Origin: Candidatus Micrarchaeota archaeon
GTDB lineage: Archaea; Micrarchaeota; Micrarchaeia; Norongarragalinales; Norongarragalinaceae
DNA: 64,000 nucleotides
Reading direction: 5' to 3'
Assembly: GCA_964408425.1 (NCBI GenBank)
Contig: CAYOZI010000001.1
Coordinates: 8,861-72,860, forward strand
The notes below the pieces were generated by a model. The model saw nothing but the letters and a program-made list of their open reading frames with translations. It searched no databases and was not told the origin of the DNA. Of this stretch, positions 2,173-58,752 are shown in pieces (positions within the stretch are counted from its first letter, which is position 1; every line of letters starts with the position of its first letter). The translations under genes were made by a program, and so were the position numbers.

Positions 2173-2178
2173 TTCAAC
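2087..2178 (-). repeat. ~92-nt exact repeat (signal-peptide coding region plus upstream), copy A; copy B at 7528..7619
   Basis: An identical nucleotide stretch encoding MKGLFFVLGLFFAMGFVFALPVLNVQGRI in two paralogous genes. Confidence 0.8.
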
Positions 2179-2201
2179 GCCCACCCCGCTTTAATGCAAA
2201 C

Positions 2202-3305: not shown

Positions 3306-3357
3306 GACAATTACCAACGCAAAAGAAAATAAAAACCTAACAGGCTGAAGAATAAGG

Positions 3358-4287: not shown

Positions 4288-4305
4288 AATAAAAAAGAAA
4301 AAAAT

Positions 4306-5193: not shown

Positions 5194-5271
5194 GCTTTAA
5201 GCCCACCTGAAACGAAACTAAAAAATAAACGGAAAATAATTGGGACGGGAAGGAATAAAAAACGCGGTTTT

Positions 5272-5718: not shown

Positions 5719-5734
5719 TTTTCACACCCCTAGT

Positions 5735-7615: not shown

Positions 7616-7619
7616 TTCA
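7528..7619 (-). repeat. ~92-nt exact repeat, copy B (see 2087..2178)
   Basis: Identical to copy A by direct comparison of the two stretches. Confidence 0.8.
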
Positions 7620-8984
7620 ACTTCGCCCCCTGCCCCTGACGCGCATGAACAACAACGACATCAAAACCAACGCCAAAACCGCAATCAAATCCGTTTCCGG
7701 CAAAGCCTTCCTTTCCGTAACCAAAATCAAAGCCGGGTTTTCCGCATCTTCATACTTAGTCCCGCCGAAAACCACCCACGCTTCGGCCCTCAAGTTTTTC
7801 CTGTCGAAAACCTCTCCCTCCGCCAAATCGATTTTCGCCTGGAAAACGCCGGGCTTGACAAACTCAATCGGAAGAGTAACGACCTGGTCTCCGCTGTCGG
7901 CGTCAAAAACGCTCAACGCTATGCCTGGATCCGAGACTACAGCCAAACCAGTTTCAGGGTCGTTCAGCAAAATCGTTATCACTGCCTTTTCCTCGAAATC
8001 CGGAATTCCCGTTCCAGAAACCACCTTCCCCCCTTCTATCCTCAAAATATTCCCTTCCCCGCCACCTCCTGTCGGAACGCACTGGCAGGCTTGGCAGGCG
8101 AACCCCTCGCTGCAAGTCAAACCCCTTTCCCCGCACTCTTCCCCGAAATCCGTAGCGTCATTCCCATCACAGAACGAACCTCCTTGTGAAATGACGAATT
8201 GCGTGGGGTTGGGAGTGCACGTTATGAGATTCCCTCCGACAGTTCCGTTAGCCCGGATTAATTTCGTTCCTACAGTCGTGTAAGAACAGGTTCTCGTGAA
8301 AACCAAGCCGTTTTGCGTGAAAGACTGCCTGTTGCCCGTATCGCAATAACCTTGGAAATTAGTCACAGGCCCTTGGGAAAACGTTACAGTAACGTCGGTC
8401 GTTTCAGGGGAAGGCGGAATTGCGCCTGAAGAAGGGTTGATGGAAATCGAGCACGTCGGAAGGCTGACGACTTCAATGGGCTTGAACGGGCAGTTGAACG
8501 CAGGGTTGGAGAAATTGGCGTAAATTGCTTTCGACCCGACGCTCGTTCCGGTGAACTGGGTCGGGTTGGCGTTGTTCGGGTTGAAAGAAACGCCGGTCGC
8601 ATTCGCGCTCCAGGATATAGTCATGACGCCCGTAGGGCAGGAGGATGGAGAGCCGTTGTTAGTGCATTGAGCGGTGAGGGCAACTGGAACGTTTACAGTC
8701 ACCGTATCCGGCCCTGAAACTCCCGTGCAATTCCAACCCGAAGGAACGGTGGTTGCGGCAGGGCATATTCCCCCGTAACACGGGCCCACTTCTGCAGCGT
8801 AACTCCCGCTTGAAAAACTTCCCACTGGAGGGGTTGTGATGACGTATTGCACTTCGTAAGAGCCGGAAGTTTGCTGCAAGCCGGAAGTTCCAATGTGGTA
8901 GTTGGCGGTGTAAGAGCCGGAAGAAGCTTCGAAAGCGAAAGCGAAAACCGAAAACAAAAGCAATGCCGCCAAGACTTTCCGCAA
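7617..8984 (-). CDS. Secreted Cys-rich protein with a C-terminal LPETD motif + TM helix + Arg-rich tail (sortase/archaeosortase-substrate-like tripartite signal)
   Basis: 455 aa; signal peptide; Cys-rich middle; GGGGEG linker; conserved ~150-aa C-terminal domain ending ..RKALPETDLIAVLALVLMSLLFMRVRGRGRS. The stop codon abuts the start of 5735..7615. Confidence 0.7.
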   Translation of the reverse strand: MRKVLAALLLFSVFAFAFEASSGSYTANYHIGTSGLQQTSGSYEVQYVITTPPVGSFSSGSYAAEVGPCYGGICPAATTVPSGWNCTGVSGPDTVTVNVPVALTAQCTNNGSPSSCPTGVMTISWSANATGVSFNPNNANPTQFTGTSVGSKAIYANFSNPAFNCPFKPIEVVSLPTCSISINPSSGAIPPSPETTDVTVTFSQGPVTNFQGYCDTGNRQSFTQNGLVFTRTCSYTTVGTKLIRANGTVGGNLITCTPNPTQFVISQGGSFCDGNDATDFGEECGERGLTCSEGFACQACQCVPTGGGGEGNILRIEGGKVVSGTGIPDFEEKAVITILLNDPETGLAVVSDPGIALSVFDADSGDQVVTLPIEFVKPGVFQAKIDLAEGEVFDRKNLRAEAWVVFGGTKYEDAENPALILVTERKALPETDLIAVLALVLMSLLFMRVRGRGRS

Positions 8985-9087
8985 CCCGACCCAGCCCCCT
9001 GTTCAAGAAACAAATTCTAAACGCAAGAACGATATTTAAACGTTCTAGAATTCACGAGTAAAAACGTCTTTCAAAAAAAGAAGGAAT

Positions 9088-9558
9088 TCAACCTAAGGAG
9101 GAAAGGCATTGTTGCTTCAATTCTTCAGGCAGCCCGTCGCAAGGAACCGCTTCTGAGGGGGAAAAACCGTCTGAAGCCGCAGGCTGGACGTCCTGCAAGC
9201 ACTGCGCTTTCAGCCCTTCTGGCACGCCTTCGCACGGGGAAGAAGGTTCCAAAAGCGAAGGCGGAACTTCGTTTGAAGAGAAAGGCTGAACCGATTGCAG
9301 ACAATCTTGCTTCAAACCACTACCGTCAGGCAAGCCCGAACACGGTTCAACGGAAGTCTCGTCCAAAACAGGCGCGGCTTCCTGGGTAGGCGGGGAAACC
9401 ACGTTTACGGCAACCACTCCCGTCGCAGGAGGCTGAGGCGCGACAGGCGCGGGATTCTGGGACGGCAGCTGCAAAACCCAGCTGAAAAAAACCAGCGCCA
9501 ACGCCAGAACCGCCCAAGCGGCAAGCATTACAATCCTTTGGTCCAAAATCCCTTTCAT
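9088..9558 (-). CDS. Small Cys-repeat secreted protein (paralog 2)
   Basis: Start taken at MKGILDQ (the ORF track begins 8 codons earlier and would overlap the upstream gene). The N-terminal anchor and the C-terminal PCDGLPEELKQQCLSSLG are nearly identical to 5272..5718, including ~85 nt of identical DNA. Confidence 0.65.
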   Translation of the reverse strand: MKGILDQRIVMLAAWAVLALALVFFSWVLQLPSQNPAPVAPQPPATGVVAVNVVSPPTQEAAPVLDETSVEPCSGLPDGSGLKQDCLQSVQPFSSNEVPPSLLEPSSPCEGVPEGLKAQCLQDVQPAASDGFSPSEAVPCDGLPEELKQQCLSSLG

Positions 9559-9560
9559 TT

Positions 9561-10676
9561 TCAACACGCTTCCTGAACGCACAATTGAATTCCGTTCACT
9601 TTCAAGCCTCTGGGAACGAACGGTAAAACACAGTTTCCGCTTGACAACTGCGCATCAACCAAAACGCATTTTCCGGTTAGCTTAGAGAAAATGTTTTTGT
9701 TCACCACGAGATTGTCGTCAACGATAACGTCGTTTCCTGAACTTGAAATCGGGCTGGTGCCTTCAAGCACGATGCTGCCGTAAACGAGCAAGTTCGAAGG
9801 CCTTTTTTCACCTCCGTAGTTTGAAGAGCCGAAGGCAACAGTCGGGCTGAGGAACCTTGCATAAAGGCTGTAGAAAGTCGGCAGGCTGTACTTTCCGAAA
9901 AGAAGGTGGGTGAAAGTCTGGATTTTTTGCTCGTAGAAATAATCCTGCTGGTAGCCGGTCAGCGCGCCTCCAATCACGAAATAATTCGGGGGAAAAGCAG
10001 AAAACAGGGTGTTCACAGGCAACCGAACGCTGTAAGCCTGGCTGAAATCCGCACTCTCTCCGGCGTAAACGTCTTTAGCCGACACTACGCCCTTGGTCAA
10101 AACATTATCAGCATAAACGTTGTTCAGCCAAGCGCTTCCGCCCACGGCTTGCGAATAGTAAAACCTCTTGCGTTCCTTAAGCAATTCCTTCTCACCGCTT
10201 GAATCCACGTAAACCAGGCGCAGGTAATAAGCCGTGTTTATCCTCAGCAAAGGAGGGGCTACCGGAGTGGGCGAAGGGCACGGATAGCCTGCAACGCAAG
10301 CGTAAACTCGGTTAACTTGGGTTTTGGAGAAAGTCAAGTCGAAAACCGAGTCTGCATTCAACTCGTCCGTCTGCGTGAGCAACGGAGTTCCGCCCGTTGA
10401 AGCAGTGTAAACCTCGCCCCTCACGCTTCCCGAAACCGCCTTTCCCAGCGAGTCTTTAATCTTTCCCTGCACGTTCAACACAGGGTATGAAGAGCCTACA
10501 ATTGCGGTAGGAGTCTCGTAAGTATTCAAGTCGAAATCCGTTCTAATGTCCACGGAAACCGAACCATCCGATGGAGCGGTAATGCCAGTAACGTCAATAG
10601 GATCGCTGATTTCCTGCGCGAAAACCAAGCTTGAAACAAACAAAACCGCTAAAACCGAAGCTAAAAATTTTTTCAT
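9561..10676 (-). CDS. Secreted surface protein (shorter paralog of the large surface proteins)
   Basis: Signal peptide MKKFLASVLAVLFVSSLVFA; it shares the PVLNVQGKI and YYLRLVY motifs with the 274.. and 5735.. proteins. Confidence 0.6.
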   Translation of the reverse strand: MKKFLASVLAVLFVSSLVFAQEISDPIDVTGITAPSDGSVSVDIRTDFDLNTYETPTAIVGSSYPVLNVQGKIKDSLGKAVSGSVRGEVYTASTGGTPLLTQTDELNADSVFDLTFSKTQVNRVYACVAGYPCPSPTPVAPPLLRINTAYYLRLVYVDSSGEKELLKERKRFYYSQAVGGSAWLNNVYADNVLTKGVVSAKDVYAGESADFSQAYSVRLPVNTLFSAFPPNYFVIGGALTGYQQDYFYEQKIQTFTHLLFGKYSLPTFYSLYARFLSPTVAFGSSNYGGEKRPSNLLVYGSIVLEGTSPISSSGNDVIVDDNLVVNKNIFSKLTGKCVLVDAQLSSGNCVLPFVPRGLKVNGIQLCVQEAC

Positions 10677-10706
10677 TTCCCAAACCACCCCGTTAATGCA
10701 AAAAAA

Positions 10707-11951
10707 TTATTTCCTTTTCCTCTCAGCTTTTGTTTTGCTTAAGCGAAGGTACAGCAACGCGGTGAAAACCAACGCCAAAACCGCAATCAAATCCGTTTCC
10801 GGCAAAGCCTTCCTTTCCGTAACCAAAAGCAACGCCTTGTCCTCGACATCAGCGTACTCGACGCCGTCAACTTCAACCCACGCTTCAACCCTCAACGTTT
10901 TCTTTTCAAACTCCGCATTGGATAACGAAAGCGTCGCTTCAAAAACACCCGGCTTGCCAGTGTAAGAAACGGACACGGGAATTTCCTCGTCGCTCCCGTC
11001 ATCGAAAACCTTCACGTTCAAGCCGGGGTCGCTAGTCAAAGCCAACCCGGTTTTCGGGTCGTTCAACAAAATAATTACTTTCGCGTTTTCCGAAAAGTCT
11101 TCAGCCGAAGAGCCGGAAAAAACCTTTCCCGCTTCAATCCTCAAAACGCTTCCCACTCTCGAAGAATCGACGCAAGCGCTGCAAGCCACGCAAACCTGGC
11201 TTAAAACGCAGCCGTCATTCAAATCGCAAGTTTCTCCGAACTCGCGAACTCCGTTCCCGCAAACCGCTCCGCCCCCGCCCCCATCGTCAGGAGGAAGGAT
11301 GTCTTCCCTGGCCCTGAAAACCGGGTAGGAATTGGGTTGCGCAGGCGGCGAACGGGCAAAACACTCCACGAACTCTCCGTTTACCACTCCGCTGGAAATT
11401 ACCGTTGAAGTGAAAGGCGGGCTTCCTTGATAAAAGCAAACTCCCTCGAACTCCAAGCCAGTAGGGTCCGGAGAAAACTGGGTGGTGATTTCGCCGTTGT
11501 ACCCGCAATCGGCTTCGACCGAATCCTCTTCAGGAACGCCGGAAAACGACAGGGTCACCGCAACGTAAGTGGAACTAGAACCCGAATCCGGTTCAAGGAA
11601 AGCAATGCAGGATTTGCCCCCGCCCGGAGGGGTTACGGTAGGAGACGGAATTGGGGTGGGAGTGGCGGAAGGCGTGGGCGACGGGGTTGCGGTCGCCGCC
11701 GCTGAAACGAAAGGACAGGTTTGCCCGTAACACGGGCCCAAGTCCGTGTTCAACTCGCCGTCGTTCGACCCTATCGGCGGCAGGACTATCGAATATTCGA
11801 CGGAATAACCGTCTATTGCAGAAGGTCCTTCGAAACCCGCTGGTCCGATGTGAAAGCTCGTGTAAAAATCGTTGAAATTCGAATCGTAAGAAAAAGCCAG
11901 AGATGAAAAAACAATCAGGAAAAAGAAAAATGCGCTTGGTTTTCCCTTCAA
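10707..11951 (-). CDS. Secreted protein with a C-terminal LPETD + TM + Lys/Arg tail (paralog of 7617..8984)
   Basis: 414 aa; signal peptide; Pro/Thr/Ser-rich linker; GPCYGQTCP and Cys-rich region. The C-terminal domain and the ..RKALPETDLIAVLALVFTALLYLRLSKTKAERKRK are conserved, with ~65 nt of DNA identical to the 7617.. copy. Confidence 0.7.
   Translation of the reverse strand: MKGKPSAFFFFLIVFSSLAFSYDSNFNDFYTSFHIGPAGFEGPSAIDGYSVEYSIVLPPIGSNDGELNTDLGPCYGQTCPFVSAAATATPSPTPSATPTPIPSPTVTPPGGGKSCIAFLEPDSGSSSTYVAVTLSFSGVPEEDSVEADCGYNGEITTQFSPDPTGLEFEGVCFYQGSPPFTSTVISSGVVNGEFVECFARSPPAQPNSYPVFRAREDILPPDDGGGGGAVCGNGVREFGETCDLNDGCVLSQVCVACSACVDSSRVGSVLRIEAGKVFSGSSAEDFSENAKVIILLNDPKTGLALTSDPGLNVKVFDDGSDEEIPVSVSYTGKPGVFEATLSLSNAEFEKKTLRVEAWVEVDGVEYADVEDKALLLVTERKALPETDLIAVLALVFTALLYLRLSKTKAERKRK
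10765..10829 (-). repeat. ~65-nt identical segment shared with 7663..7727 (coding for the ..ALPETDLIAVLALV.. anchor)
   Basis: Direct comparison: aaaaccaacgccaaaaccgcaatcaaatccgtttccggcaaagccttcctttccgtaaccaaaa in both LPETD genes. Confidence 0.75.
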
Positions 11952-12003
11952 AATAAAAACCCTGCCCGTTGTTTTTTCCTACGAACAACTTACGAAGAGA
12001 GTG

Positions 12004-12885
12004 TTATTTAAACGTTTTTTCCGAAAGCAACGGATTCGCTAAAGGCGAGACGACCGGCGACGGTTGAGCAAAAGGAGAAGGGGAAAGGGAGGGCAGGCTT
12101 GAAGACCGCATAGGAATTTCGGCAATTTTCATTACGCTCGGAACTTGAAAAGTTTGCTTTGATAAAGAAAAAGCGCCGATGTCGGTTGAAACTAGGGAGA
12201 AAGGCGACGAGGTATTCCCAGAAGGAGGCAAAACAGGCTGCACTGCAACCAAAACCTGCGAAAACTGCAAGCCGGGCAAGGAAAAAGGCCGAATCGAAGG
12301 AGTTTCAACTGCAGAACCGTACGGCGGCAAAAACCCCCCGCTTTCGAGCCTGCAACGCAATTTCACGTAGTTGTCCAACTGCCTTCGGTAGATTACCTTG
12401 TTTCTGGAGTCTTTCACAACCACCTCCCGCACGCCGCACGAGAAAGGAGCGAAAAGAACCGCGTTCGGAACGGTTACGCTTGATTCTCGTCCAACGCAGC
12501 CGCCACTGCCGCCGTCAAGAACTCCGCTCGCGCTTCCGAAACACTCGGGAGAGTCGGACAAAACCGTTTTGGTGAAAGAAAATTTGGCGGAAAAAACCGG
12601 TTGTTTCCTCGAATTCCTCAATTCCATCGTGAAATCCCCCGAACCCCCCTGTTTTTGCAAGAACGAGTCGTACAACACCACCCGGTCGACCGAAACCCGC
12701 CCTCCCTCGTTGGAAAACCTGAATGCGAAAACGGGCTTGAGGAAATCTTTCGCAACCGTGAAAAGCCGCTCGCCGCCAGCCTTGCTCAAATCACCTTCCG
12801 AACTTCCGCCGCCCGCCATAGAAAAGCCGCTTGCGCTTGCGCCCAGGATTACGGCGAAAAACAATGCAAACAGCAGTTTATTCAA
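12004..12885 (-). CDS. Secreted hypothetical protein
   Basis: Signal peptide MNKLLFALFFAVILGASASG, Ser/Pro-rich C-terminus; overlaps the upstream metalloprotease gene by 4 nt (operon-like). Confidence 0.5.
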   Translation of the reverse strand: MNKLLFALFFAVILGASASGFSMAGGGSSEGDLSKAGGERLFTVAKDFLKPVFAFRFSNEGGRVSVDRVVLYDSFLQKQGGSGDFTMELRNSRKQPVFSAKFSFTKTVLSDSPECFGSASGVLDGGSGGCVGRESSVTVPNAVLFAPFSCGVREVVVKDSRNKVIYRRQLDNYVKLRCRLESGGFLPPYGSAVETPSIRPFSLPGLQFSQVLVAVQPVLPPSGNTSSPFSLVSTDIGAFSLSKQTFQVPSVMKIAEIPMRSSSLPSLSPSPFAQPSPVVSPLANPLLSEKTFK

Positions 12886-15881
12886 GAAAATCCCTCCAAC
12901 GACTGGTTCAACGACCGTTGGTTCACTTTCCCGAAAGCATCACGCCAAGCGTAATCGCTATCCGTGACAAACCCGGGAGACCAAAACAATACAGGCGAAA
13001 AATCCAGGTAGTAATGGAACAAGACGAACGAAAACCAGTCCCCGCCGCTGCTCATCATCGACCTCACCGTCGGCCTCGCCCCGCTCTCCCCGTCCGTACA
13101 ACCCGGAGGAGTGTAAGACAAGATGCGCGTGTAGTTAACGCAACTCACGTCCCCGTAAATGCAATGCCAGTAATCATCATCAAGAGGCTGTTCGGAACTC
13201 TCGCTATGCAAATAATCCAATTCGGGCTCGCTCAGGATTTTCAACGCGCCCTTGCCCCCGCCAACCAAATCCCCCCACCATTCCATTGCTGTTGAAGAAT
13301 TCGGAGCGCAGCTCGGCATTCCCTCCGTGTTCCCAGGCCACTCGTCTTTCAACCAGCTTAAAGCATGCCCGAACTCGTGCACAACCGCGGCCGTTTCCCA
13401 CCGGTCGTACTCGAACCTAGTCGTAACCATGAAAAACATCGGATAAGCCATCCCCCCGTTTCCGCCAATGTTGTTTGTCGTCAAAACCCCGCGCAAGTCC
13501 GCAGGACAGGACAATACAGCCGCAGTCCAATCGCCCGAACCACCGCTGCAAAACCGCCAGTTCGCCTCGCAGTAATCACCCATGCGGCTGAAGCGCAAAA
13601 AGTTTATCTTCTGCTCTTGGGAGTGCAACGGTTCTATCAACGAAAGCCCTGTGAGAGAAAAGTTGCTGTCGTTGTCGAAACTCGCTTGCCGGTAGTGCCA
13701 CTCCTGCTCGTCGTAAGAATAATTCATCCCGTCCCCGAACAACGCCACGTCCAGCTTAGTCTCTGGGTTGCCGCTGTAATCCCACACGATGCAAGCGTCG
13801 GTATACAAAACAGGCGTGCCAGCCGCGGTGAGGTTGTTGTTCGAATAATCCGGCTCGAAACCCTGCTGGAACGGGTTTGCATTGGCGAAAACCGAGAAGT
13901 CGCTCTCGCCGAAAAACTCTTCAGGAGGAGTCCAGTTGAAAACAACCGTCGAGTTGCCCAAAGCGTTCCACGCCCCCTCGCCCGGCTGGATTTCAAAAGT
14001 GCCGAGCGTCACCGGCTCGGTCCAAAAACCGCTTTCGTTCGCAGGCGTGTAATACTCGAAATGCGTTTCGTTCAAAACCACGCTGATGACCGAAAAAGTC
14101 CCGTTCGGAAAAGGCGCGTTCCCCAAGTTTTTCACTACGACGACAACCTGCCCCGCGTGATTAATGTCAGGCTGCGTCGGGAAGCTTATTTCGTCTACCG
14201 CCAAGTCCGGAACGTTAACAAAAACATTTTGAGAGCGGTTGTTGTTTCCCTCGCTTTCCTCCAAACCGGCAATGTTCGGCTCGTCGGAAACGAACGCCTT
14301 GAGCGAATGGCTTCCGCCCACGCTCGGCGTCCAGTCGAACTGCACCAGGGCAGAAGCGCTTCCGTTCCATAACCCCTCGCTCTTGCTAACGTTCTTGATT
14401 CCTATGAAACGCGCGTCGCTCTGGTTGAGAGTGAAAATATCTCGCGTCAAAACCACGAAAATGTTCGTGGTGTTGGAAGGAAACGGCGCGTTGCGCAAGT
14501 TCGCTATCGTAATGTTGATCGTGGAAGGCTGCAATATTCGCAGAGTTGGGGTGGAAATGCTTTGAACCGCCAAATCCGGCCTATCCACGTTCACGCTCAA
14601 GTTCAAAACGTTGTTCGACTCGCTCTCCTCCACGCCGTTCGCATCCGGAACGTCGTCAACTTCCAAGGTCAAATTGCGCAGCCCCCCGCTTTGCGGAGTC
14701 CAGTCGAAAACAAAACTGTTTTTGCCCCAAGCGAGCCAAACGCCAGCGTTTTTGGAAACGTTCACTTCCTCTACCACGGTGTTCGCGTCTTTCAGCCTAA
14801 CGAAAACATTCCGAGTAGAAGCCGGAATGGAAGCGTTGTTGGCGTTAGAAACGTTGACTTCCACCCGGACTTTCTTCCAAATCGACGGGCTTTGCAAAAC
14901 CCGGATGCTCTGCGCGACCAAATCCGGCTTTGTGATTCCAACCGAAACGTTCATCGCTGCAATATTGTTGTTCTCGCTAACCTCCCTGCCGTAAGGCTCT
15001 CCGAATTCCGGATAATCATCCGCATAAACGTAAACCGGATAATTGCCGCTCTTCATTGGAATCCAGTCGAAAGAAACCCTGCTTTCCCCGTTCGCATTCC
15101 ACGCTCCAGAGTTTTTCGGAATCAAAACCATTCTAGCGCAGCCGTTCGTTTGCATGCACGATTGGAATTCAGCCTGGTCCTGCTCGTCCCAGAACACCCC
15201 GTCGCCGTCAAACCAAACGAAAATCTTTTCAGCAGGATTGCGGCTTGAATCGAAAACGCCGAACCCCACGTTTTTCGAATTACGCACGGTAACATTCACC
15301 CTCTCAAGCTGAAACGCCTCGAAAGGAAGATAGCCTACAGCAAGCCCGCTCAAAGTCAAATCCGGCCTTGCCCCGACGAAAGCCTTCCAATTCACCAAAA
15401 CCCCGTACTCATCCTCGACATTAACAATCCCGTCCTTGTTCCCATCCAACAAGGAACAGGAAACCGTTTCCCCACCAACAACGCAGTTTTCCGAAGAGTT
15501 TTTCCCCGCATTCCCTTCAACCGCAACCAAATCCGGATTGCTCACGTAAAAATCGTCGTTGTAATCGTAAAAAGAAACCGGGCTGCACGAAGAGCCGTAG
15601 TCATACCCCAACGCTGCGTTATCCCTCTCGTCCACAACCCCGTCGCGATTCGCGTCGAACGCTTTGCAAACGATTCCCGTATTCAAATTCCAAGAGCAAG
15701 AGTTTTGCGAAGAGCTTTTCCCGAAATTCTCCCTCAACGGACCCTGGTCCGCATCATTCACAATCCCGTCGTAATTGACGTCCGAATAGCAGGAAGAAGA
15801 ATAGGCGGACGCGAATAGGGAAAAGCCCGCAACTAGGAGCACGAACGCTATGGCAACAAAGGCAAAAATTCGGCGTTTCAT
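12882..15881 (-). CDS. Large secreted zinc metalloprotease (HEFGH) with 3 N-terminal dockerin/EF-hand-like Ca-binding repeats and ~4 CARDB-like repeats
   Basis: ~1000 aa; signal peptide MKRRIFAFVAIAFVLLVAG (ORF track starts 9 codons earlier); DVNYDGIVNDAD, DANRDGVVDERD and DGNKDGIVNVED repeats; four PDL(V/A/T)..S..-type repeats; HExxH at ~13365..13379. Confidence 0.7.
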   Translation of the reverse strand: MKRRIFAFVAIAFVLLVAGFSLFASAYSSSCYSDVNYDGIVNDADQGPLRENFGKSSSQNSCSWNLNTGIVCKAFDANRDGVVDERDNAALGYDYGSSCSPVSFYDYNDDFYVSNPDLVAVEGNAGKNSSENCVVGGETVSCSLLDGNKDGIVNVEDEYGVLVNWKAFVGARPDLTLSGLAVGYLPFEAFQLERVNVTVRNSKNVGFGVFDSSRNPAEKIFVWFDGDGVFWDEQDQAEFQSCMQTNGCARMVLIPKNSGAWNANGESRVSFDWIPMKSGNYPVYVYADDYPEFGEPYGREVSENNNIAAMNVSVGITKPDLVAQSIRVLQSPSIWKKVRVEVNVSNANNASIPASTRNVFVRLKDANTVVEEVNVSKNAGVWLAWGKNSFVFDWTPQSGGLRNLTLEVDDVPDANGVEESESNNVLNLSVNVDRPDLAVQSISTPTLRILQPSTINITIANLRNAPFPSNTTNIFVVLTRDIFTLNQSDARFIGIKNVSKSEGLWNGSASALVQFDWTPSVGGSHSLKAFVSDEPNIAGLEESEGNNNRSQNVFVNVPDLAVDEISFPTQPDINHAGQVVVVVKNLGNAPFPNGTFSVISVVLNETHFEYYTPANESGFWTEPVTLGTFEIQPGEGAWNALGNSTVVFNWTPPEEFFGESDFSVFANANPFQQGFEPDYSNNNLTAAGTPVLYTDACIVWDYSGNPETKLDVALFGDGMNYSYDEQEWHYRQASFDNDSNFSLTGLSLIEPLHSQEQKINFLRFSRMGDYCEANWRFCSGGSGDWTAAVLSCPADLRGVLTTNNIGGNGGMAYPMFFMVTTRFEYDRWETAAVVHEFGHALSWLKDEWPGNTEGMPSCAPNSSTAMEWWGDLVGGGKGALKILSEPELDYLHSESSEQPLDDDYWHCIYGDVSCVNYTRILSYTPPGCTDGESGARPTVRSMMSSGGDWFSFVLFHYYLDFSPVLFWSPGFVTDSDYAWRDAFGKVNQRSLNQSLEGFS

Positions 15882-15996
15882 TGCGTTAAAATATGACGAA
15901 AACAACATTAAAAACTATTATTTTAACCACTAAACAGTTTATAACAAAACGAGTTTTTGATTGCTCGAACGCTACAAGTGGCGTTTTGAAATAAGG

Positions 15997-18938: not shown

Positions 18939-19279
18939 TTCTATTGCCAGGCGCGAAAAGCCATTCCCAACTCACGGCCAAAGTCCACGCCAGGCCCCAC
19001 GGCGGCATGAGCAGGGTAGTAGTGGCGTTGTGCGATTCGGAATTGCTTGGAAAAATATACACCCAGGGCGAGAGGGTTTTGGACCTGAAGAACTACAGGG
19101 GTTTTTACGAAGGTGCTGCGGTTACGGAAATCGAAGCCATAGAACTTTTGAGGATGGCGGACAACGCGAACATAGTGGGCGAAAAAAGCGTGGCAATAGC
19201 GAAAAAAGCGTTCGGCGTTTCCTCAACCGAAACGAAAACGATAAAGAAAATCCCGCACTTGCAATACTACAAAATCTAA
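18935..19279 (+). CDS. Hypothetical protein
   Basis: 114 aa, ATGA overlap with the upstream ORF; no recognisable motif. Confidence 0.4.
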   Translation: MILLPGAKSHSQLTAKVHARPHGGMSRVVVALCDSELLGKIYTQGERVLDLKNYRGFYEGAAVTEIEAIELLRMADNANIVGEKSVAIAKKAFGVSSTETKTIKKIPHLQYYKI

Positions 19280-19410
19280 GAAGATAAGACTGCAATAATT
19301 TTTTGTTTCTATAACAAAAACGCCAGTAGGCCCTATTACAACATGATCCAACTGACGCCCAGAAGGCAACTTAAAATCAGCTGCTAGATAAAATTCGTCG
19401 TTCAAATTTT

Positions 19411-19638
19411 TTAGACTATTATCAACTTCCACTTCTCCAGCCACATCAGATAATGAGTTCCTTTAGAAAAAAATCCAGCACTAATAATGAACGAAAGAAC
19501 GGAAAACCACACCAAAAAACTAGCATAAGAACTAATCCAGTATAAAATCAGAGAAGAAAAAAAGAGAACAAAACTATATTTAAAATAATGGCCAGAGGTA
19601 TCGGATAAGTAGGAACTACGTGGCTTGATTAGTTTCAC
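19411..19638 (-). CDS. Small hydrophobic ORF inside an AT-rich tract
   Basis: 75 aa, 2 predicted TM helices; the GC content is far below that of the surroundings. Confidence 0.2.
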   Translation of the reverse strand: MKLIKPRSSYLSDTSGHYFKYSFVLFFSSLILYWISSYASFLVWFSVLSFIISAGFFSKGTHYLMWLEKWKLIIV

Positions 19639-19683
19639 AACACATGAAAAACGAACTACATAAAAAACATTTTGAAAAAGAGA

Positions 19684-19797
19684 GTGCGGCGACCGGGAAT
19701 CGAACCCGGGCTACCAGCTTTCTGCTCTTTCTTTGGTCAAGCTTTCTTTCGCAAAGAAAGGTTGGAAGGCTGGAATCATACCATTAGACCATCGCCG
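19684..19797 (-). tRNA. tRNA-Gly (anticodon UCC) with a ~43-nt intron at the canonical 37/38 position
   Basis: Acceptor GCGGCGA/TCGCCGC, anticodon stem CCAGC/GCTGG, loop CTTCCA|intron|A, T-arm CCGGG-TTCGATT-CCCGG. The intron (~19719..19761) carries the hairpin TTTCTTTGCGAAAGAAA. Confidence 0.75.
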
Positions 19798-19815
19798 CGC
19801 GAATAATACTGGAGC

Positions 19816-19831
19816 ATAATTAAATTTAAAG
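19816..19831 (-). promoter_or_regulatory. Candidate TATA box (TTTAAATTTAA) ~25 nt upstream of tRNA-Gly
   Basis: AT-rich palindromic element at archaeal -26 spacing relative to the tRNA 5' end. Confidence 0.35.
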
Positions 19832-19977
19832 CAAATGCGCAGGTTTGAAGTCCTCGATTTGGCCCAGCGCTATGTCTTTAAGTGAAGCTCGAATTTGCTT
19901 CATCAAATTCGTGTCTTCCAAAACATCACGCGTTTCTTTGTCAAACAATTAGGCATCTCCTCCTCAAAAAAAGGTAG

Positions 19978-20081
19978 TGGGGTCGCTGAGATTCGGACTC
20001 AGGTCTCCAGCCCCCCAGGCTGGAAGGATGCGTCGCCGAACAAATACGAACGTATTTGCTCTCAGGCTACCCCACGACCCC
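19978..20081 (-). tRNA. tRNA-Pro (anticodon GGG) with a ~28-nt insertion (putative non-canonical intron) in the D-loop
   Basis: Acceptor GGGGTCG/CGACCCC, D-stem GGGT/ATCC separated by a 39-nt loop containing the hairpin CAAATACGTTCGTATTTG, anticodon stem CCAGC/GCTGG with loop CTGGGGG, T-arm CTGAG-TCCGAAT-CTCAG. Confidence 0.65.
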
Positions 20082-20083
20082 AG

Positions 20084-21247
20084 TTACAATTTATGGTTGG
20101 TTATGCTTAAAAACGCTTTAAGATTTTCAGGATCATCGCTTATCCAGGCTGGAATAGCATCGGTTGAATTTCTCGAAGGAAAACCGTTCGCTTTAAGCCA
20201 CCGTCCAACAGCCACGCAGGAAACAAAACATTGGTAACTCTTTAGACTCTTTTTCCTGGCGTAAGGAACGGGCAAATTGAATTTTAGCAACACTATTCGC
20301 GCAAAATCCAGGATCAATTCTGTCGAGGAGGAAATGATGTAAAACTGCTTCAGGTTTTTGGATAAGCCGCCATATCTAAGCAGATAAGCGAAAAGCTTTG
20401 CTAGATCGACATCAAGTGAGTTGGGAAGGACAGCCCTTCGCTTGTCGTACAGGAACTCGAGGGCGTTTTTGTCAATCCAAAACGCGTTATCCCAAGCCTG
20501 AACCTTCCGCTCAGCCACCAAAGCGGCTTTTTCCAAAACAAGGTTTTTTCTATTATCAAGCCCAAACCGTATTTCTTTTTGAAACAATGAATTCGAACGA
20601 GTACGTACACCGAATATCATAGATTTGGTCCGATGCCCGTCTTTCCTGAGGTTGGCGTTTTGAATAATGACGTTGGAAGTTTTAATCCCAAAATTCAACA
20701 GCATTTCCTTCAGATCGTTTATGAACGAAATCCCATCATCCAGAAGCAGTTCGTCCTTGTTTAGGTGGAAAGAAACAAGGTATGAATTGAAAGAAGTGGA
20801 TTTGCTAATCCAACCCTCGCACTGAAACGCAATTGAAAGGTAAGCCTTGGAAAAAACGCGGTTTGTTTTTATCCACGCTGGAACCCTAAAAGGCACGAGC
20901 ATCTTGTCGCCTTTCGGAACTCCGGCTTCAAAAAGAAGCTTAGCTACTTTTGAACTATAAAACCTGCACTTATAGCTAAAACCAAAACCAGTTCCCTGTT
21001 CATAGTGGGGTTTCAAACCGAATTTGCTTACAACGATTTTTTCAAAGTCTTTAAGAAAAACAAAGTTTGACGAAGACAGGTAAAAACGACTCAAATTCTT
21101 TCCAAGATGGCCGTCGAACGTCAGGTAACTAACGAGTTTAGCCAAATCCTCGTCTAAAACTAGAGTGTCGGCTGTCATGCGTTCTACCTGCGGGTTAATG
21201 CAAACACTCGCAAGTAAACAGAATTTAAAAACTTGGGCAGACACCAC
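20084..21247 (-). CDS. Double-motif LAGLIDADG-like homing-endonuclease-like protein, free-standing
   Basis: 387 aa with a clear internal duplication: DLAKLVSYLTFDGHLGKNLSRFYLSSS.. and DLAKLFAYLLRYGGLSKNLKQFYIISS... The first motif keeps the acidic residue; the second is degenerate. The stop codon lies 2 nt from the tRNA-Pro 5' end. The likely true start is MTADTL at 21178. Confidence 0.5.
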   Translation of the reverse strand: MVSAQVFKFCLLASVCINPQVERMTADTLVLDEDLAKLVSYLTFDGHLGKNLSRFYLSSSNFVFLKDFEKIVVSKFGLKPHYEQGTGFGFSYKCRFYSSKVAKLLFEAGVPKGDKMLVPFRVPAWIKTNRVFSKAYLSIAFQCEGWISKSTSFNSYLVSFHLNKDELLLDDGISFINDLKEMLLNFGIKTSNVIIQNANLRKDGHRTKSMIFGVRTRSNSLFQKEIRFGLDNRKNLVLEKAALVAERKVQAWDNAFWIDKNALEFLYDKRRAVLPNSLDVDLAKLFAYLLRYGGLSKNLKQFYIISSSTELILDFARIVLLKFNLPVPYARKKSLKSYQCFVSCVAVGRWLKANGFPSRNSTDAIPAWISDDPENLKAFLSITNHKL

Positions 21248-21277
21248 CTTGCCGGTGGCGCTATTTCTGCCGGTGGC

Positions 21278-21475
21278 TTAAAATCTTTGGTAGGGGATGA
21301 TTTCCTCGACCAAATCAACTTGTCCGAGAAACATTCTCCTGCAGCAGTATCTGTTAAAACCGAGTTCGTCCAAAACCTTTCCAGCATCCTCTCCCGAAGT
21401 GGTGCGCTGCTTGAACTCCTCCCAATTCTCGGCAATGGGCTTTCCGCACGTGAAACAACGGACTGGAACCAACAT
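21278..21475 (-). CDS. rpoN: DNA-directed RNA polymerase subunit N (Rpb10)
   Basis: 65 aa, MLVPVRCFTCGK...YCCRRM zinc-binding signature. Confidence 0.9.
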   Translation of the reverse strand: MLVPVRCFTCGKPIAENWEEFKQRTTSGEDAGKVLDELGFNRYCCRRMFLGQVDLVEEIIPYQRF

Positions 21476-21490
21476 TTTTCCTTCACCCTC

Positions 21491-21934
21491 TTAACGATAA
21501 GATTTCGTAAACCTTGCCCTTGCTTTGGGCCCCTTGAATTTTTTAGGTTCAACCCTTCGGGCGTCCTCGACGTACAAGCTCCTGTCGAACTCGAGAAACT
21601 GCTTCTTCAGCTCTTCGCCATCCTTCCTGAACTCGATCAAAGCGCGGGCGATTGCCGTTCTGGCCGCTTGCGCCTGGCCCATTATTCCACCGCCGTTGGT
21701 GGTTATGGAAATGTCGAAATCGTAAGGCTCCTGCAAGAACGATAACGGCTCTGCGATTATTTGCCGTGCAAAAGGGTTGGCGTAAGAATTCAACGAAAGC
21801 CCGTTAATGCGTATAATGCCTTTTCCGGCCTTGATGTAAGCCCGAGCTATTGCCTCTTTCCGCTTTCCGCGGGTTACTATCTGCTTTTTCTTTCGCGTTT
21901 TCTTCTTCTTTTCAACTTTAACTTCATCAGCCAT
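21491..21934 (-). CDS. rps9: 30S ribosomal protein S9 (uS9)
   Basis: GGGIMGQAQAARTAIARAL signature; 147 aa. Confidence 0.9.
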   Translation of the reverse strand: MADEVKVEKKKKTRKKKQIVTRGKRKEAIARAYIKAGKGIIRINGLSLNSYANPFARQIIAEPLSFLQEPYDFDISITTNGGGIMGQAQAARTAIARALIEFRKDGEELKKQFLEFDRSLYVEDARRVEPKKFKGPKARARFTKSYR

Positions 21935-26012: not shown

Positions 26013-26432
26013 CTAACCACGATGCTCTTCTGACGCCGTAATCCCTTTTTCTTCCAAAAACGCCTTCAAGCCCTTCAAAAACCCGAGGTGGCTGGAGATA
26101 GCGCCCCTAACGGCTTCATCGCTTTTGAAACCGGCGTAGTGAGAAAGATTGTGCCAAACCCTCACTTGGATTTCCCTAGAGTCGGGATTGAAACCGAAAG
26201 CAACCCTCTGTTCGCTCGTGTAAAGCAGCGGGTTGTGCAGGTACTCCAGATCTTCAACGCGTTGCAGTGAATTCAAAAAAGCCTTAGCCTGCGACGGAGC
26301 TACATTATGCTTGGAATTTGCCAGAACCCAGTCGAAAAGCCCCGGAACCTGGTCGAAATGCTTTTCATGAAATGAAAAGACCACGGTCTTTTTGAACAAT
26401 TCCGAACCCTGAACGCGTTCAGCCATGCACAA
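26013..26432 (-). CDS. Hypothetical protein
   Basis: 139 aa, balanced composition, no motif recognised; 14-nt overlap with the cbf5 3' end. Confidence 0.45.
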   Translation of the reverse strand: MCMAERVQGSELFKKTVVFSFHEKHFDQVPGLFDWVLANSKHNVAPSQAKAFLNSLQRVEDLEYLHNPLLYTSEQRVAFGFNPDSREIQVRVWHNLSHYAGFKSDEAVRGAISSHLGFLKGLKAFLEEKGITASEEHRG

Positions 26433-27351
26433 CCCTCTCCACGTCGAAAGCCAAGCCGCCTTTCCCGGATTGCGCCCTCGAAACGATTTCCTTCGAATCT
26501 ATCAACGCTTTGGCAAAACAGATTATTTCCCCCATGCCGTTTAAAACCTGCACGCTCTCGTTTTTTTCAATAGATTCATCCAGCGAAACTATTCCCGGAA
26601 TAGCCAGATTCGCTCCGGTGGTGATGGGTTTTATCGCCCCGTCATCCACGACAACCTTTTTCAGCTTCCCTTCCAACGCTTCCTCGAGAGTCAGCACCAT
26701 TTTTTGCAGTTCTTTGTCTTCCCCTTTTTCCGTCCACAGCCAAAACGCGTCGCTCAAATCCTGAAGAGAATGGGCTTCTTTTTCAGTGAAACCGGCGGCG
26801 TAAACCCTCCTCAATTCCGCCATTTCCCCGCCGCACCCTAAAACTTCTCCAACATCGAAACAGATTTTTCTCACGTAAAACCCGCCTTCCACGTCGCACT
26901 CGAACAAAACGTATTTCCCCTCCGCTTCTAAAACCGCCAGTTCAAAAACCTCGCGAACGCGCATTTTCTTGACTACAGCGCTCTCGAGAGGCGGCTTCTG
27001 GAAGATTTTTCCCTTGAAATGCGAAAACGCATCTTCGATTTCTTTTTTGCTTTTGTTTTCCCCCAGACGCAGCACGCAAACGTACTTTTTCCTCGAGCCA
27101 AGCAAATACTTAGCCGCTTTCGTGCTTTCCTCCAGCAGAACGGGCAAAACGCCGGAAACGTTCGCGTCCAAAGTTCCCGAATGCCCGGCTTTCGACTGCC
27201 CCAAGATTTTTTTCACGAAAGCCGCAGCCTCGTGGCTTGAAGGCCCCGAAGGCTTGTCGAGAATGAAAACCCCCTTCCTTATTTTTTCTTCAAGCGAACG
27301 CTCGGAAGGAGGCTCCCCTACCTTGCACTCGATTTCTTGCAGGCGAATCAT
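26419..27351 (-). CDS. cbf5: H/ACA RNP pseudouridine synthase Cbf5 (TruB family) with PUA domain
   Basis: ILDKPSGPSSHE and GHSGTLD catalytic motifs; 310 aa. Confidence 0.85.
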   Translation of the reverse strand: MIRLQEIECKVGEPPSERSLEEKIRKGVFILDKPSGPSSHEAAAFVKKILGQSKAGHSGTLDANVSGVLPVLLEESTKAAKYLLGSRKKYVCVLRLGENKSKKEIEDAFSHFKGKIFQKPPLESAVVKKMRVREVFELAVLEAEGKYVLFECDVEGGFYVRKICFDVGEVLGCGGEMAELRRVYAAGFTEKEAHSLQDLSDAFWLWTEKGEDKELQKMVLTLEEALEGKLKKVVVDDGAIKPITTGANLAIPGIVSLDESIEKNESVQVLNGMGEIICFAKALIDSKEIVSRAQSGKGGLAFDVERVVHG

Positions 27352-27385
27352 GATTTAAAATAGAGTGGAACGATAGATTAAGCAT

Positions 27386-44756: not shown

Positions 44757-44829
44757 CGCCTTGGCCGGGATTCGGACCCGGGTCTCCAGCGTGACAGGCT
44801 GGAATGCTAGGCCACTACACTACCAAGGC
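44757..44829 (-). tRNA. tRNA-Asp (anticodon GUC)
   Basis: Acceptor GCCTTGG/CCAAGGC, D-arm TAGTGTAGTGGCCTAGCAT, anticodon stem CCAGC/GCTGG with loop CTGTCAC, T-arm CCGGG-TCCGAAT-CCCGG. Confidence 0.85.
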
Positions 44830-45022: not shown

Positions 45023-45041
45023 GACAAGCCTTTAAAATTTC

Positions 45042-55524: not shown

Positions 55525-55535
55525 TCCAACCACGT

Positions 55536-58696: not shown

Positions 58697-58752
58697 TAAA
58701 GAAGAAACTACCCAGAGTTTTAAATAACAAACTGGTTCTGGGCAAGAAAAAA

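What the first reader, a model, noticed from the sequence alone, without database searches (positions are those of the whole stretch)
19978..20081. tRNA-Pro(GGG) with a ~28-nt insertion in the D-loop: candidate non-canonical intron
The acceptor stem, D-stem (GGGT/ATCC), anticodon arm (CCAGC-CTGGGGG-GCTGG) and T-arm are all canonical. The D-loop, however, is 39 nt long and contains a stable hairpin (CAAATAC-GTTCG-GTATTTG). Non-canonical intron positions processed by the splicing endonuclease at bulge-helix-bulge motifs are known in some archaeal lineages. The element also sits right next to a homing-endonuclease-like gene. A second anomaly is that two nucleotides separate the D-stem from the anticodon stem.
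Basis: seen in the sequence. Interest (0 to 1): 0.6.

Follow-up and report, generated by a model that had tools for sequence, protein, structure and literature searches.

The report
Split proline tRNA gene, D-loop intron
This is a real proline tRNA gene of a tiny groundwater archaeon, interrupted in its D-loop by a 31-base intron of a known, enzyme-spliced kind; the more unusual point is that the homing-endonuclease-like gene beside it belongs to a family always found next to proline tRNA genes.

Summary
Window 20081..19978 (minus strand) is a tRNA-Pro(GGG) gene interrupted in its D-loop.

- **Intron:** comparison with relatives fixes the insert as a 31-nt intron (20062..20032) between G18 and G19. 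Removing it gives a tRNA identical at 72 of 73 positions to the uninterrupted ortholog of the closest relative found.
- **Structure:** the junction folds into a relaxed bulge-helix-bulge (BHB) motif with the canonical 3-4-3 spacing. The intron's inner helix is kept by compensatory changes across seven homologous introns.
- **Organism:** a groundwater Micrarchaeota (DPANN) archaeon. This phylum is already known for disrupted tRNA genes and a broad-specificity splicing endonuclease, so this is a new member of a known kind.
- **Neighbouring gene:** the LAGLIDADG gene belongs to a small DPANN family. In all 16 contexts examined it lies immediately 5' of a tRNA-Pro gene. Eleven of those tRNA genes carry a BHB intron near their 5' end (18/19 or 3/4), against 2 of 57 genes without the endonuclease gene. 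Cooperative mobility of endonuclease gene and intron is possible but untested.

No RNA data exist, so splicing itself is inferred.

The parts
19978..20081 (-). tRNA-Pro(GGG) gene including the intron (104 nt). No CCA is encoded.
   Evidence: Rfam RF00005 40.1 bits; model R1 81.1 bits; sequence read.
20063..20081 (-). Exon 1, GGGGUCGUGGGGUAGCCUG (tRNA positions 1-18).
   Evidence: Alignment with uninterrupted orthologs; coordinates verified.
20032..20062 (-). Intron, 31 nt, AGAGCAAAUACGUUCGUAUUUGUUCGGCGAC, between G18 and G19.
   Evidence: This is the only deletion that reproduces the ortholog sequence AGCCUG|GCAUCC. It occurs once in the window.
19978..20031 (-). Exon 2, tRNA positions 19-73 (GCAUCCU...CGACCCCA). 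Anticodon GGG at 20014..20016. T-loop UCCGAAU with C55.
20065..20068 (-). Central BHB helix H, exon strand A14-G15-C16-C17.
   Evidence: Pairs with GGCG at 20034..20037. Three Watson-Crick pairs are invariant in 7 of 7 homologs. The fourth position is A.G here and A-U in L096. It is also in the MFE and centroid folds.
20062..20064 (-). 5' splice-site bulge U17a-G18|A. The cut falls after the second bulge nucleotide.
   Evidence: Three unpaired nucleotides in the MFE fold. The junction is fixed by orthologs.
20038..20061 (-). Intron inner helix h' (GAGCAAAUAC / GUAUUUGUUC, 10 bp) with loop GUUC.
   Evidence: In seven homologous introns, 7 of 8 counted pairs show compensatory changes and 89% of cells are paired.
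20034..20037 (-). Central BHB helix H, intron strand GGCG.
20031..20033 (-). 3' splice-site bulge A-C|G19. It is followed by unpaired C20 and A21 before the D-stem, which makes this side relaxed.
   Evidence: Read from the sequence. The pattern A-N|G-C-A is conserved in 7 of 7 homologs.
20107..20113 (-). TATA-like box TTTTTAA, 26-32 nt upstream of tRNA position 1, inside the 3' end of the LAGLIDADG ORF. Inferred promoter element.
   Evidence: Read from the sequence. L013, which lacks the ORF, has TTTTAA at -34..-29. Function not tested.
19966..19972 (-). Run of 7 T, 5 nt after the discriminator base. Inferred archaeal transcription stop.
   Evidence: Read from the sequence. Function not tested.
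20084..21178 (-). Free-standing LAGLIDADG homing-endonuclease-like gene (364 aa). Its stop codon lies 2 nt before the tRNA.
   Evidence: Pfam LAGLIDADG_3, 23.4 bits against a cut-off of 22.5. NCBIfam matches to the endonuclease parts of intein-containing proteins. Both motifs are conserved across the family. The gene lies 5' of tRNA-Pro in all 16 contexts.

Best explanation
The locus is the single syntenic tRNA-Pro(GGG) gene of a Micrarchaeota archaeon (gene order rpoN, LAGLIDADG gene, tRNA-Pro, tRNA-Gly). It carries a 31-nt enzyme-spliced intron between G18 and G19 of the D-loop.

In the precursor, D-loop nucleotides A14-C17 pair with GGCG near the 3' end of the intron to form the central helix. 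The rest of the intron forms a 10-bp hairpin. The two splice sites sit in bulges on opposite strands (UG|A and AC|G), each 2 nt 3' of the central helix. This is the 3-4-3 geometry of a bulge-helix-bulge motif. The motif is relaxed on the 3' side: the fourth pair is A.G, and there is no directly stacked outer helix.

Inferred steps:
1. The archaeal splicing endonuclease cuts both bulges. In this phylum it is the broad-specificity epsilon2 type.
2. An RtcB-type ligase joins the exons.
3. The D-loop AGCCUGGCA is restored, with the G18-G19 pair needed for D-loop/T-loop docking.

Shown: gene identity, exact junctions, conserved motif and covariation.
Inferred: transcription from its own TATA-like box, cleavage, ligation, and the enzyme type.
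For: - The gene is a tRNA: Rfam 40.1 bits and a Pro-specific model 81.1 bits.
- The spliced product differs from the uninterrupted ortholog L013:6624-6696 only at position 55. It shares its D-arm with the same genome's tRNA-Pro(UGG) at 46551..46702.
- The organism is Micrarchaeota / Ca. Norongarragalinales, from Rifle groundwater assemblies.
- Homologous introns sit at the same site in L058, L017, L091, L093, L095, L096 and L098.
- On the seven-sequence alignment, h' has 7 of 8 pairs with compensatory changes, the covariation score is 0.455 against 0.186 in shuffles (0 of 500 reach it), and slid registers fall to 0.14 or less.
- H plus the 3-nt bulge plus h' appear in the MFE and centroid folds, z = -4.1.
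- Orthologous tRNA-Pro(GGG) genes of 61 relatives show the lineage's intron habit: 19 uninterrupted, 15 with an anticodon-loop intron, 24 with a T-loop intron, 1 with both an anticodon-loop and a T-loop intron, and 2 with a D-loop intron, one of which (L017) also has an anticodon-loop intron.
- The same cleavage rule fits seven independent 3/4 introns, each with 4 of 4 H pairs.
- Literature: ARMAN-2 has 56% disrupted tRNA genes and an epsilon2 endonuclease that cuts relaxed motifs (PMC3239211). A D-loop BHB intron of A. pernix tRNA-Thr is cut in vitro by its endonuclease alone (PMC3241643).
Against: - There are no RNA data, so splicing is not observed.
- No splicing endonuclease gene was found in the 64-kb window. 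The rest of the genome could not be searched, so the enzyme type is inferred from the phylum.
- The motif is not a strict hBHBh'. The fourth H pair is A.G, and C20 and A21 separate the 3' bulge from the D-stem.
- The T-loop has C55 instead of U55, which could be read as decay. However, tRNA-Asp of the same window has it too, as do other tRNAs of relatives, mostly tRNA-Gly.
- The ten assemblies that carry the identical gene are one population and add no independent support.
Confidence: 0.88

Rival explanations
1. The insert is not removed, and the mature tRNA keeps an expanded 39-40 nt D-loop with an extra hairpin.
For: No RNA data exclude it. The hairpin is stable.
Against: The insert separates G18 from G19, which must contact the T-loop together. 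Its ends obey the BHB cleavage geometry, and the junction reproduces the ortholog sequence exactly. Insert length and sequence vary freely (31-39 nt) while only the pairing is kept. That pattern fits a spliced spacer, not a functional tRNA part.
Confidence: 0.03
2. The gene is a decaying pseudogene, and the insert and C55 are damage.
For: U55 is nearly universal but is C here. Standard tRNA finders reject or misread the gene.
Against: It occupies the conserved rpoN-tRNA-Pro-tRNA-Gly position as the only Pro(GGG) gene there. All stems are intact. Apart from C55 the exons equal those of L013. C55 also occurs in the window's tRNA-Asp and in other tRNAs of relatives, mostly tRNA-Gly. Homologous inserts at the same site keep their pairing by compensatory change, which implies selection.
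Confidence: 0.04
3. It is an intron, but the junctions differ from 18/19, for example because a shifted register uses the GGGU/AUCC helix as the outer helix.
For: The 3' side is relaxed and alternative pairings exist. RNAfold pairs A-C of the 3' bulge with U13-G12. My permissive BHB scan lists neighbouring solutions.
Against: Only the 18/19 deletion gives the D-loop AGCCUGGCA shared by the closest orthologs and by the paralogous tRNA-Pro(UGG). It is also the solution with the longest inner helix.
Confidence: 0.04
4. The insert is a self-splicing intron or a miniature transposable element, not an endonuclease-dependent intron.
For: None found.
Against: 31 nt is far too short for a group I or II ribozyme. 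No Rfam family matches it. No other copy exists in the window with up to 3 mismatches. It has no terminal inverted repeats or target duplication.
Confidence: 0.01

Closest known systems
Non-canonical BHB introns of archaeal tRNA genes (Thermoproteales and other Crenarchaeota; A. pernix tRNA-Thr(UGU) D-loop intron, PMC3241643; review PMC4090602)
   Same: A short protein-spliced intron outside the anticodon loop, here in the D-loop. The exon-intron junction forms a bulge-helix-bulge or relaxed variant. Intron sequence is free apart from the pairing.
   Different: The host phylum is Micrarchaeota rather than Crenarchaeota. The position is 18/19. The review text lists 20/21, 22/23 and others 'etc.', and I could not verify whether 18/19 has been reported. 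The 3' side is relaxed, whereas the A. pernix intron is described as a canonical BHB.
Disrupted tRNA genes of ARMAN-2 (Ca. Micrarchaeum acidiphilum) and its epsilon2 splicing endonuclease (PMC3239211, PMC3488258, PMC12397907)
   Same: Same phylum, with a high fraction of interrupted tRNA genes: 4 of the 8 tRNA genes in this window. Relaxed motifs are accepted. tRNA-Pro(GGG) is itself an intron host in ARMAN-2.
   Different: ARMAN-2 tRNA-Pro(GGG) carries its introns in the T-loop (53/54 and 59/60), as do 24 of the relatives examined here. This gene carries one in the D-loop. The endonuclease of this organism was not seen.
[quoted passage not shown]
   Same: A free-standing homing-endonuclease gene lies directly beside a gene whose intron sits close to the endonuclease gene. 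Gene and intron are partly co-distributed.
   Different: The known cases involve phage, a group I intron and a non-LAGLIDADG enzyme. Here it is an archaeal chromosome, a BHB intron and a LAGLIDADG enzyme. Neither cleavage of the intronless allele nor protection by the intron was tested, and both elements also occur without the other.
Intron-encoded LAGLIDADG endonucleases of archaeal rRNA BHB introns (for example I-DmoI and I-PorI; from established knowledge, see also PMC2602781)
   Same: A LAGLIDADG enzyme with two motifs in one chain, associated with a BHB-intron-bearing stable-RNA gene in Archaea.
   Different: The reading frame is not inside the intron. It lies upstream of the tRNA gene, ending 2 nt before position 1, and the intron is only 31 nt.

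Membership tests
Archaeal BHB tRNA intron (non-canonical position) | The exons, once joined, give a canonical archaeal tRNA. | tested here: met
   The joined exons align over 73 positions with 18 uninterrupted orthologs and match L013 at 72 of 73. R1 scores 81.1 bits.
Archaeal BHB tRNA intron (non-canonical position) | Strict hBHBh' motif: two 3-nt bulges, a 4-bp Watson-Crick central helix, and stacked outer helices on both sides. | tested here: not met
   The central helix has 3 Watson-Crick pairs plus A14.G. C20 and A21 lie between the 3' bulge and the D-stem. Only L096 has a fourth A-U pair.
Archaeal BHB tRNA intron (non-canonical position) | Relaxed motif (HBh' type) with both cuts 2 nt 3' of the central helix strands. 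| tested here: met
   The 5' side is AGCC-[UG|A]-10 bp helix. The 3' side is GGCG-[AC|G]. The junctions were derived independently from orthologs.
Archaeal BHB tRNA intron (non-canonical position) | Pairing is conserved by covariation while the sequence drifts. | tested here: met
   7 of 8 h' pairs have compensatory changes. No shuffle out of 500 reaches the observed score.
Archaeal BHB tRNA intron (non-canonical position) | Removal in vivo by the splicing endonuclease (EndA) and ligation by RtcB. | not testable with these tools
   No transcript data were available.
Archaeal BHB tRNA intron (non-canonical position) | The genome encodes a broad-specificity endonuclease (epsilon2 or (alpha-beta)2). 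| tested here: inconclusive
   None was found in the 64-kb window by motif search, Pfam scan of 10 unassigned ORFs, or tblastn with an M. jannaschii sequence recalled from memory.
LAGLIDADG homing endonuclease (free-standing) | Two LAGLIDADG motifs with conserved acidic residues. | tested here: met
   Pfam LAGLIDADG_3 scores above its cut-off in three homologs. ..VSYLTFDGHL and ..AF(Q/D)CEG.. are conserved in nearly all family members aligned.
LAGLIDADG homing endonuclease (free-standing) | Sporadic presence at one conserved genomic site. | tested here: met
   Present in 5 of 80 S9-sampled Micrarchaeota loci, always between rpoN and tRNA-Pro. One assembly of the same population has a 714-bp internal deletion.
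LAGLIDADG homing endonuclease (free-standing) | Site-specific cleavage of alleles that lack the gene. | not testable with these tools
   This needs an enzyme assay.
Collaborative homing (endonuclease gene plus neighbouring intron) | The endonuclease gene and the intron are co-distributed beyond chance. | tested here: inconclusive
   A 5'-proximal intron is present in 11 of 16 tRNA-Pro genes beside the endonuclease gene, against 2 of 57 without it. One-sided Fisher p is 8e-8 overall, 1.4e-3 within Micrarchaeota excluding the window, and 0.19 in the unbiased S9 sample. Lineages are not independent.
Collaborative homing (endonuclease gene plus neighbouring intron) | The enzyme cuts the intronless gene near the intron insertion site, and the intron blocks cutting. 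| not testable with these tools
   This needs an enzyme assay.
Group I / group II self-splicing intron | A ribozyme core of 200 nt or more. | tested here: not met
   The intron is 31 nt and has no Rfam match.

The most novel reading that the evidence does not exclude
The LAGLIDADG gene and the intron may be a cooperating mobile pair. The free-standing endonuclease would recognise the uninterrupted 5' part of tRNA-Pro DNA. A BHB intron at 18/19 (or at 3/4 in the sister subfamily) would break that recognition site, protecting the carrier allele. Being only about 20 nt from the endonuclease gene, the intron would be copied along with it by gene conversion into naive alleles. This would be the first mechanism for the spread of archaeal BHB tRNA introns, whose mobility is acknowledged as unexplained (PMC4090602).
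Probability: 0.13. Interest if true: 0.8.

Novelty: new member of a known kind. Interest (0 to 1): 0.4.

Why it matters
Taken alone, the intron matters mainly for annotation. ARAGORN and the filtered Rfam scans missed or misread this gene and a second, doubly interrupted tRNA-Pro(UGG) in the same window. A MAG annotated with such settings would therefore appear to lack proline tRNAs.

The comparative set is also a compact natural experiment in intron gain and loss. One orthologous tRNA-Pro(GGG) gene in about 60 Micrarchaeota species carries no intron or introns at up to four alternative sites: 3/4, 18/19, the anticodon loop and the T-loop.

The more interesting lead is the endonuclease gene. 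A small DPANN LAGLIDADG family with conserved catalytic residues lies immediately 5' of a tRNA-Pro gene in every context seen. Those tRNA genes are enriched for introns near the 5' end. If enzyme and intron cooperate, the open question of how BHB introns move becomes directly testable with one recombinant protein and two DNA substrates.

Tried and rejected
- **ARAGORN on every possible deletion:** it accepted 308 of 369 variants as tRNA-Pro, so it does not discriminate between junctions.
- **My own BHB scanner:** too permissive to rank junctions. It does list 19|51 as the solution with the longest inner helix.
- **Whole-window Rfam at gathering and at E-value threshold:** both miss the gene, and only the local search finds it. 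Rfam also missed all multiply interrupted tRNA-Pro genes in the endonuclease-gene loci.
- **R1 with filters off:** it gave poor alignments for genes with several introns, so these were read by eye.
- **L001-L010:** all the same population with identical sequence, so useless for covariation.
- **Metagenome pattern scan:** two of the seven hits (L094, L097) were not tRNAs.
- **Splicing endonuclease in the window:** nothing found by motif regex, Pfam scan of 10 unassigned ORFs, or tblastn with an M. jannaschii EndA sequence recalled from memory.
- **PDB sequence search with the LAGLIDADG protein:** no hit.
- **C/D-box guide RNA in the intron:** rejected. No C or D boxes are present and 31 nt is too short.
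- **LAGLIDADG ORF inside a large intron at 3/4:** rejected. In each locus a small, well-formed BHB intron lies downstream of the ORF stop. The exception is L101, where the ORF overlaps exon 1.
- **My first conclusion that the endonuclease gene is unrelated to the intron:** softened.

Full report
**1. What is at the coordinates**

Read on the minus strand, 20081..19978 is GGGGUCG-UG-GGGU-AGCCUG-[AGAGCAAAUACGUUCGUAUUUGUUCGGCGAC]-GCA-UCCU-U-CCAGC-CUGGGGG-GCUGG-AGAC-CUGAG-UCCGAAU-CUCAG-CGACCCC-A.

- ARAGORN in default mode does not report it. With intron search it misreads it as tRNA-Ala(cgc).
- Rfam's tRNA model misses it in whole-window runs. It scores 40.1 bits (gathering score 29) when only 19600..20400 is searched, and places a 38-nt insertion in the D-loop.
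- The Rfam alignment uses the D-stem GGGU/UCCU with a U13.U22 mismatch.

**2. Whose gene it is**

- Ribosomal protein S9, encoded 1.4 kb away, is found identically on 22 contigs from groundwater metagenomes (the Rifle aquifer project) and in the NCBI MAG GCA_035288665.1.
- These loci are all the same population. The tRNA and 2.7 kb around it are 99.7-100% identical.
- The 80 best S9 relatives among species-representative genomes are nearly all labelled Micrarchaeota or Ca. Norongarragalinales, with 47-77% identity.
- Gene order on the minus strand is rpoD, tRNA-Leu, L18e, L13, S9, rpoN, LAGLIDADG gene, tRNA-Pro, tRNA-Gly.

**3. Exact intron borders**

- In L013, the closest relative found by S9 identity (77%), the tRNA-Pro(GGG) after rpoN is uninterrupted: GGGGTCGTGGGGTAGCCTGGCATCCTTCCAGCC....
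- Deleting the 31 nt at 20062..20032 from the window gene gives a sequence identical to L013 at 72 of 73 positions. The single difference is C55 for U55.
- No other deletion gives this sequence, because the base before GCAUCC in the precursor is C. The junction is therefore unambiguous: G18|G19.
- The same genome's second proline tRNA, at 46551..46702 (+), has the identical uninterrupted D-arm GGGGUAGCCUGGCAUCCUUCCAGC.

**4. Structure of the junction**

- The MFE and centroid folds contain a helix GCC/GGC, a 3-nt bulge UGA and a 10-bp hairpin (z = -4.1 against shuffles).
- In BHB terms, the central helix H is A14-G15-C16-C17 paired with GGCG (three Watson-Crick pairs plus A.G). The 5' bulge is U-G|A. 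The inner helix h' is GAGCAAAUAC/GUAUUUGUUC. The 3' bulge is A-C|G19.
- Both cuts, as deduced from orthologs, lie after the second nucleotide 3' of each H strand. This matches the canonical 37/38 intron, where nucleotide 32 pairs with the third-last intron nucleotide. That rule comes from established knowledge, and PMC4090602 describes the 4-bp helix flanked by two 3-nt bulges.
- The outer helix is weak. C20 and A21 are unpaired before the D-stem, so the motif is relaxed rather than a strict hBHBh'.

**5. Is the structure selected?**

- A covariance model built from 19 uninterrupted sequences found 61 tRNA-Pro genes in the 80 related loci: 19 uninterrupted, 15 with an anticodon-loop intron, 24 with a T-loop intron, 1 with both, and 2 with a D-loop intron (L058, and L017, which also has an anticodon-loop intron).
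- A pattern scan of metagenome contigs added four more D-loop-intron genes, L091, L093, L095 and L096. L098 turned up later.
- All share AGCC-[UG|N]-helix-GGCN-[AN|G]CA. Intron lengths are 31-39 nt and the interior sequences are unrelated.
- On the seven-sequence alignment, 7 of the 8 counted h' pairs show changes on both sides and 89% of cells pair. The covariation score is 0.455 against 0.186 for shuffles (0 of 500 reach it) and at most 0.14 for slid registers.
- The three Watson-Crick pairs of H are invariant. The fourth position is A.G, A.A, or A-U in L096.

**6. Is it a pseudogene?**

- C55 is unusual, but the window's only tRNA-Asp (44757..44829) has the same UCCGAAU loop.
- C55 also occurs in tRNA-Gly of L011, L013, L015, L036 and L046.
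- All stems are intact. A TATA-like TTTTTAA lies 26-32 nt upstream and a run of seven T lies 5 nt downstream.
- I regard the gene as functional.

**7. Mechanism and known parallels**

- Micrarchaeota (ARMAN-2) have 56% disrupted tRNA genes and a three-unit epsilon2 endonuclease that cuts both strict and relaxed motifs. Their tRNA-Pro(GGG) carries T-loop introns (PMC3239211).
- A D-loop BHB intron in A. pernix tRNA-Thr is removed in vitro by the endonuclease alone, more slowly than an anticodon-loop intron (PMC3241643).
- The present case is therefore a further example of a described phenomenon.
- I found no endonuclease gene in the window. The window does encode RNase P subunits Pop5 and Rpp30 and a TtuA-like PP-loop protein by Pfam. 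A Cbf5-like pseudouridine synthase at 26419..27354 was identified only by reading its sequence.

**8. The neighbouring endonuclease-like gene**

*Identity of the protein.* The 364-aa ORF (21178..20084, minus strand) ends 2 nt before the tRNA.
- It passes the Pfam LAGLIDADG_3 threshold narrowly, and its homologs pass more clearly.
- It matches the endonuclease parts of intein-containing proteins in NCBIfam.
- Its family is small: 44 clusters, all DPANN where named.
- Both motifs (..VSYLTFDGHL and ..AF(Q/D)CEG..) are conserved in nearly all members, which suggests an active single-chain enzyme.

*Position of the gene.* In all 16 genomic contexts I could read, the gene lies immediately 5' of a tRNA-Pro gene on the same strand.
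- In Micrarchaeota it sits between rpoN and tRNA-Pro(GGG): window, L016, L025, L044, L045, L093, L096 (the same as L100), L098 and L099.
- In other DPANN it sits upstream of tRNA-Pro(UGG) and L37ae, with varying upstream neighbours: L101, L102, L104, L106, L107, L108 and L109.
- It is absent from most relatives. One assembly of the window's own population has a 714-bp internal deletion in it.

*Link with introns.*
- Eleven of the 16 adjacent tRNA-Pro genes carry a BHB intron near the 5' end: four at 18/19 and seven at 3/4. The seven at 3/4 all have 4 of 4 H pairs and 4 of 4 inner-helix pairs in 3-4-3 geometry.
- Among 57 Micrarchaeota tRNA-Pro genes without the endonuclease gene, only two carry such an intron.
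- One-sided Fisher tests give 8e-8 overall, 1.4e-3 within Micrarchaeota excluding the window, and 0.19 in the small unbiased S9-sampled subset.
- The endonuclease proteins cluster by host group, so shared ancestry cannot be separated from co-mobility. I have no control set of tRNA-Pro(UGG) genes lacking the endonuclease gene from the other DPANN lineages.
- The D-loop intron also exists without the gene (L058, L017, L091, L095), and the gene exists without any 5'-proximal intron (L025, L045, L016, L099, L108).
- The pattern resembles collaborative homing in cyanophage S-PM2. There an intron protects the carrier from a neighbouring free-standing endonuclease and gains mobility from it (PMC6083498). 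This remains a hypothesis.

**9. Verdict**

The intron is a new member of a known kind. The association between the endonuclease gene and tRNA-Pro is the part worth following up.

Noticed in passing
window 46551..46702 (+): A second proline tRNA, tRNA-Pro(UGG), carries two introns: about 47 nt in the anticodon loop and about 34 nt in the T-loop near 59/60. ARAGORN and Rfam in whole-window mode both miss it. Only the custom model found it (66.2 bits).
   Followed up: partly
window 19685..19798 (-), 44885..45023 (-): tRNA-Gly(UCC) has a 43-45 nt anticodon-loop intron and tRNA-Tyr(GUA) has a 65-68 nt one. Counting the two proline tRNAs, 4 of the 8 tRNA genes in the window are interrupted.
   Followed up: partly
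window 19978..20031 (-) and 44757..44829 (-); L011, L013, L015, L036, L046 tRNA-Gly; L024 (T-loop TCCAAAT, probably tRNA-Leu): The T-loop reads U54-C55-C56 instead of U54-U55-C56 in tRNA-Pro(GGG) and tRNA-Asp of the window and in several tRNAs of relatives. About 8 of roughly 135 T-loops scanned show it. U55 is normally converted to pseudouridine and contacts G18.
   Followed up: partly
window 20084..21178 (-); L016, L025, L044, L045, L093, L096/L100, L098, L099, L101, L102, L104, L106-L109: A small DPANN LAGLIDADG family (44 clusters) with conserved catalytic motifs lies immediately 5' of a tRNA-Pro gene in all 16 contexts read. Micrarchaeota members are about 360 aa with a degenerate partial duplication. 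The others are 210-270 aa.
   Followed up: partly
L044:9140-9200, L101:3173-3200, L102, L104, L106, L107, L109 (region between the LAGLIDADG stop and tRNA-Pro): Acceptor-stem introns at position 3/4 of tRNA-Pro (19-43 nt) have perfect 4-bp central helices formed by the 5' leader plus G1. In L101 the LAGLIDADG ORF overlaps exon 1, and its stop codon lies inside this intron. L109 has three introns (3/4, D-loop, anticodon loop).
   Followed up: partly
L002 versus window 20815..21528 (approx.): One assembly of the same population has a 714-bp deletion inside the LAGLIDADG ORF, leaving a 121-aa ORF. This could be a degenerating allele or an assembly variant.
   Followed up: no
L067:1340-1356: A 17-nt copy of the tRNA-Pro 5' end (GGGGCCACGGGGTAGCC, one mismatch) lies 124 nt upstream of the intact gene. 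It may be a scar of an insertion or excision event.
   Followed up: no
L059:7632-7745, L062:7646-7806, L058:5939-6048, L017:7288-7392: Other Micrarchaeota tRNA genes also have non-canonical introns: tRNA-Asp and tRNA-Gly with large D-arm inserts, and tRNA-Gly with an insert in the 5' anticodon-stem region.
   Followed up: no
window 274..15914 (-): Two tandem sets of paralogous secreted or surface-protein genes lie here. The ORFs of 638 and 641 aa share the same N-terminus MKGLFFVLGLFFAMGFVFALPVLNVQGRI. They are followed by a 1010-aa CARDB-like protein.
   Followed up: no
window 26419..27354 (-), 58573..59703 (+), 52705..53250 (-), 55090..55698 (-): tRNA-maturation genes lie in the window: RNase P subunits Pop5 and Rpp30 and a TtuA-like 2-thiouridine synthetase, all by Pfam. 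A Cbf5-like pseudouridine synthase was identified by eye only. No splicing endonuclease was found.
   Followed up: partly
window 19223..19444 (-): A 73-aa ORF matches only the N-terminal part of the NERD nuclease-related domain. It is probably a fragment, lying between tRNA-Gly and a DUF424 gene.
   Followed up: no
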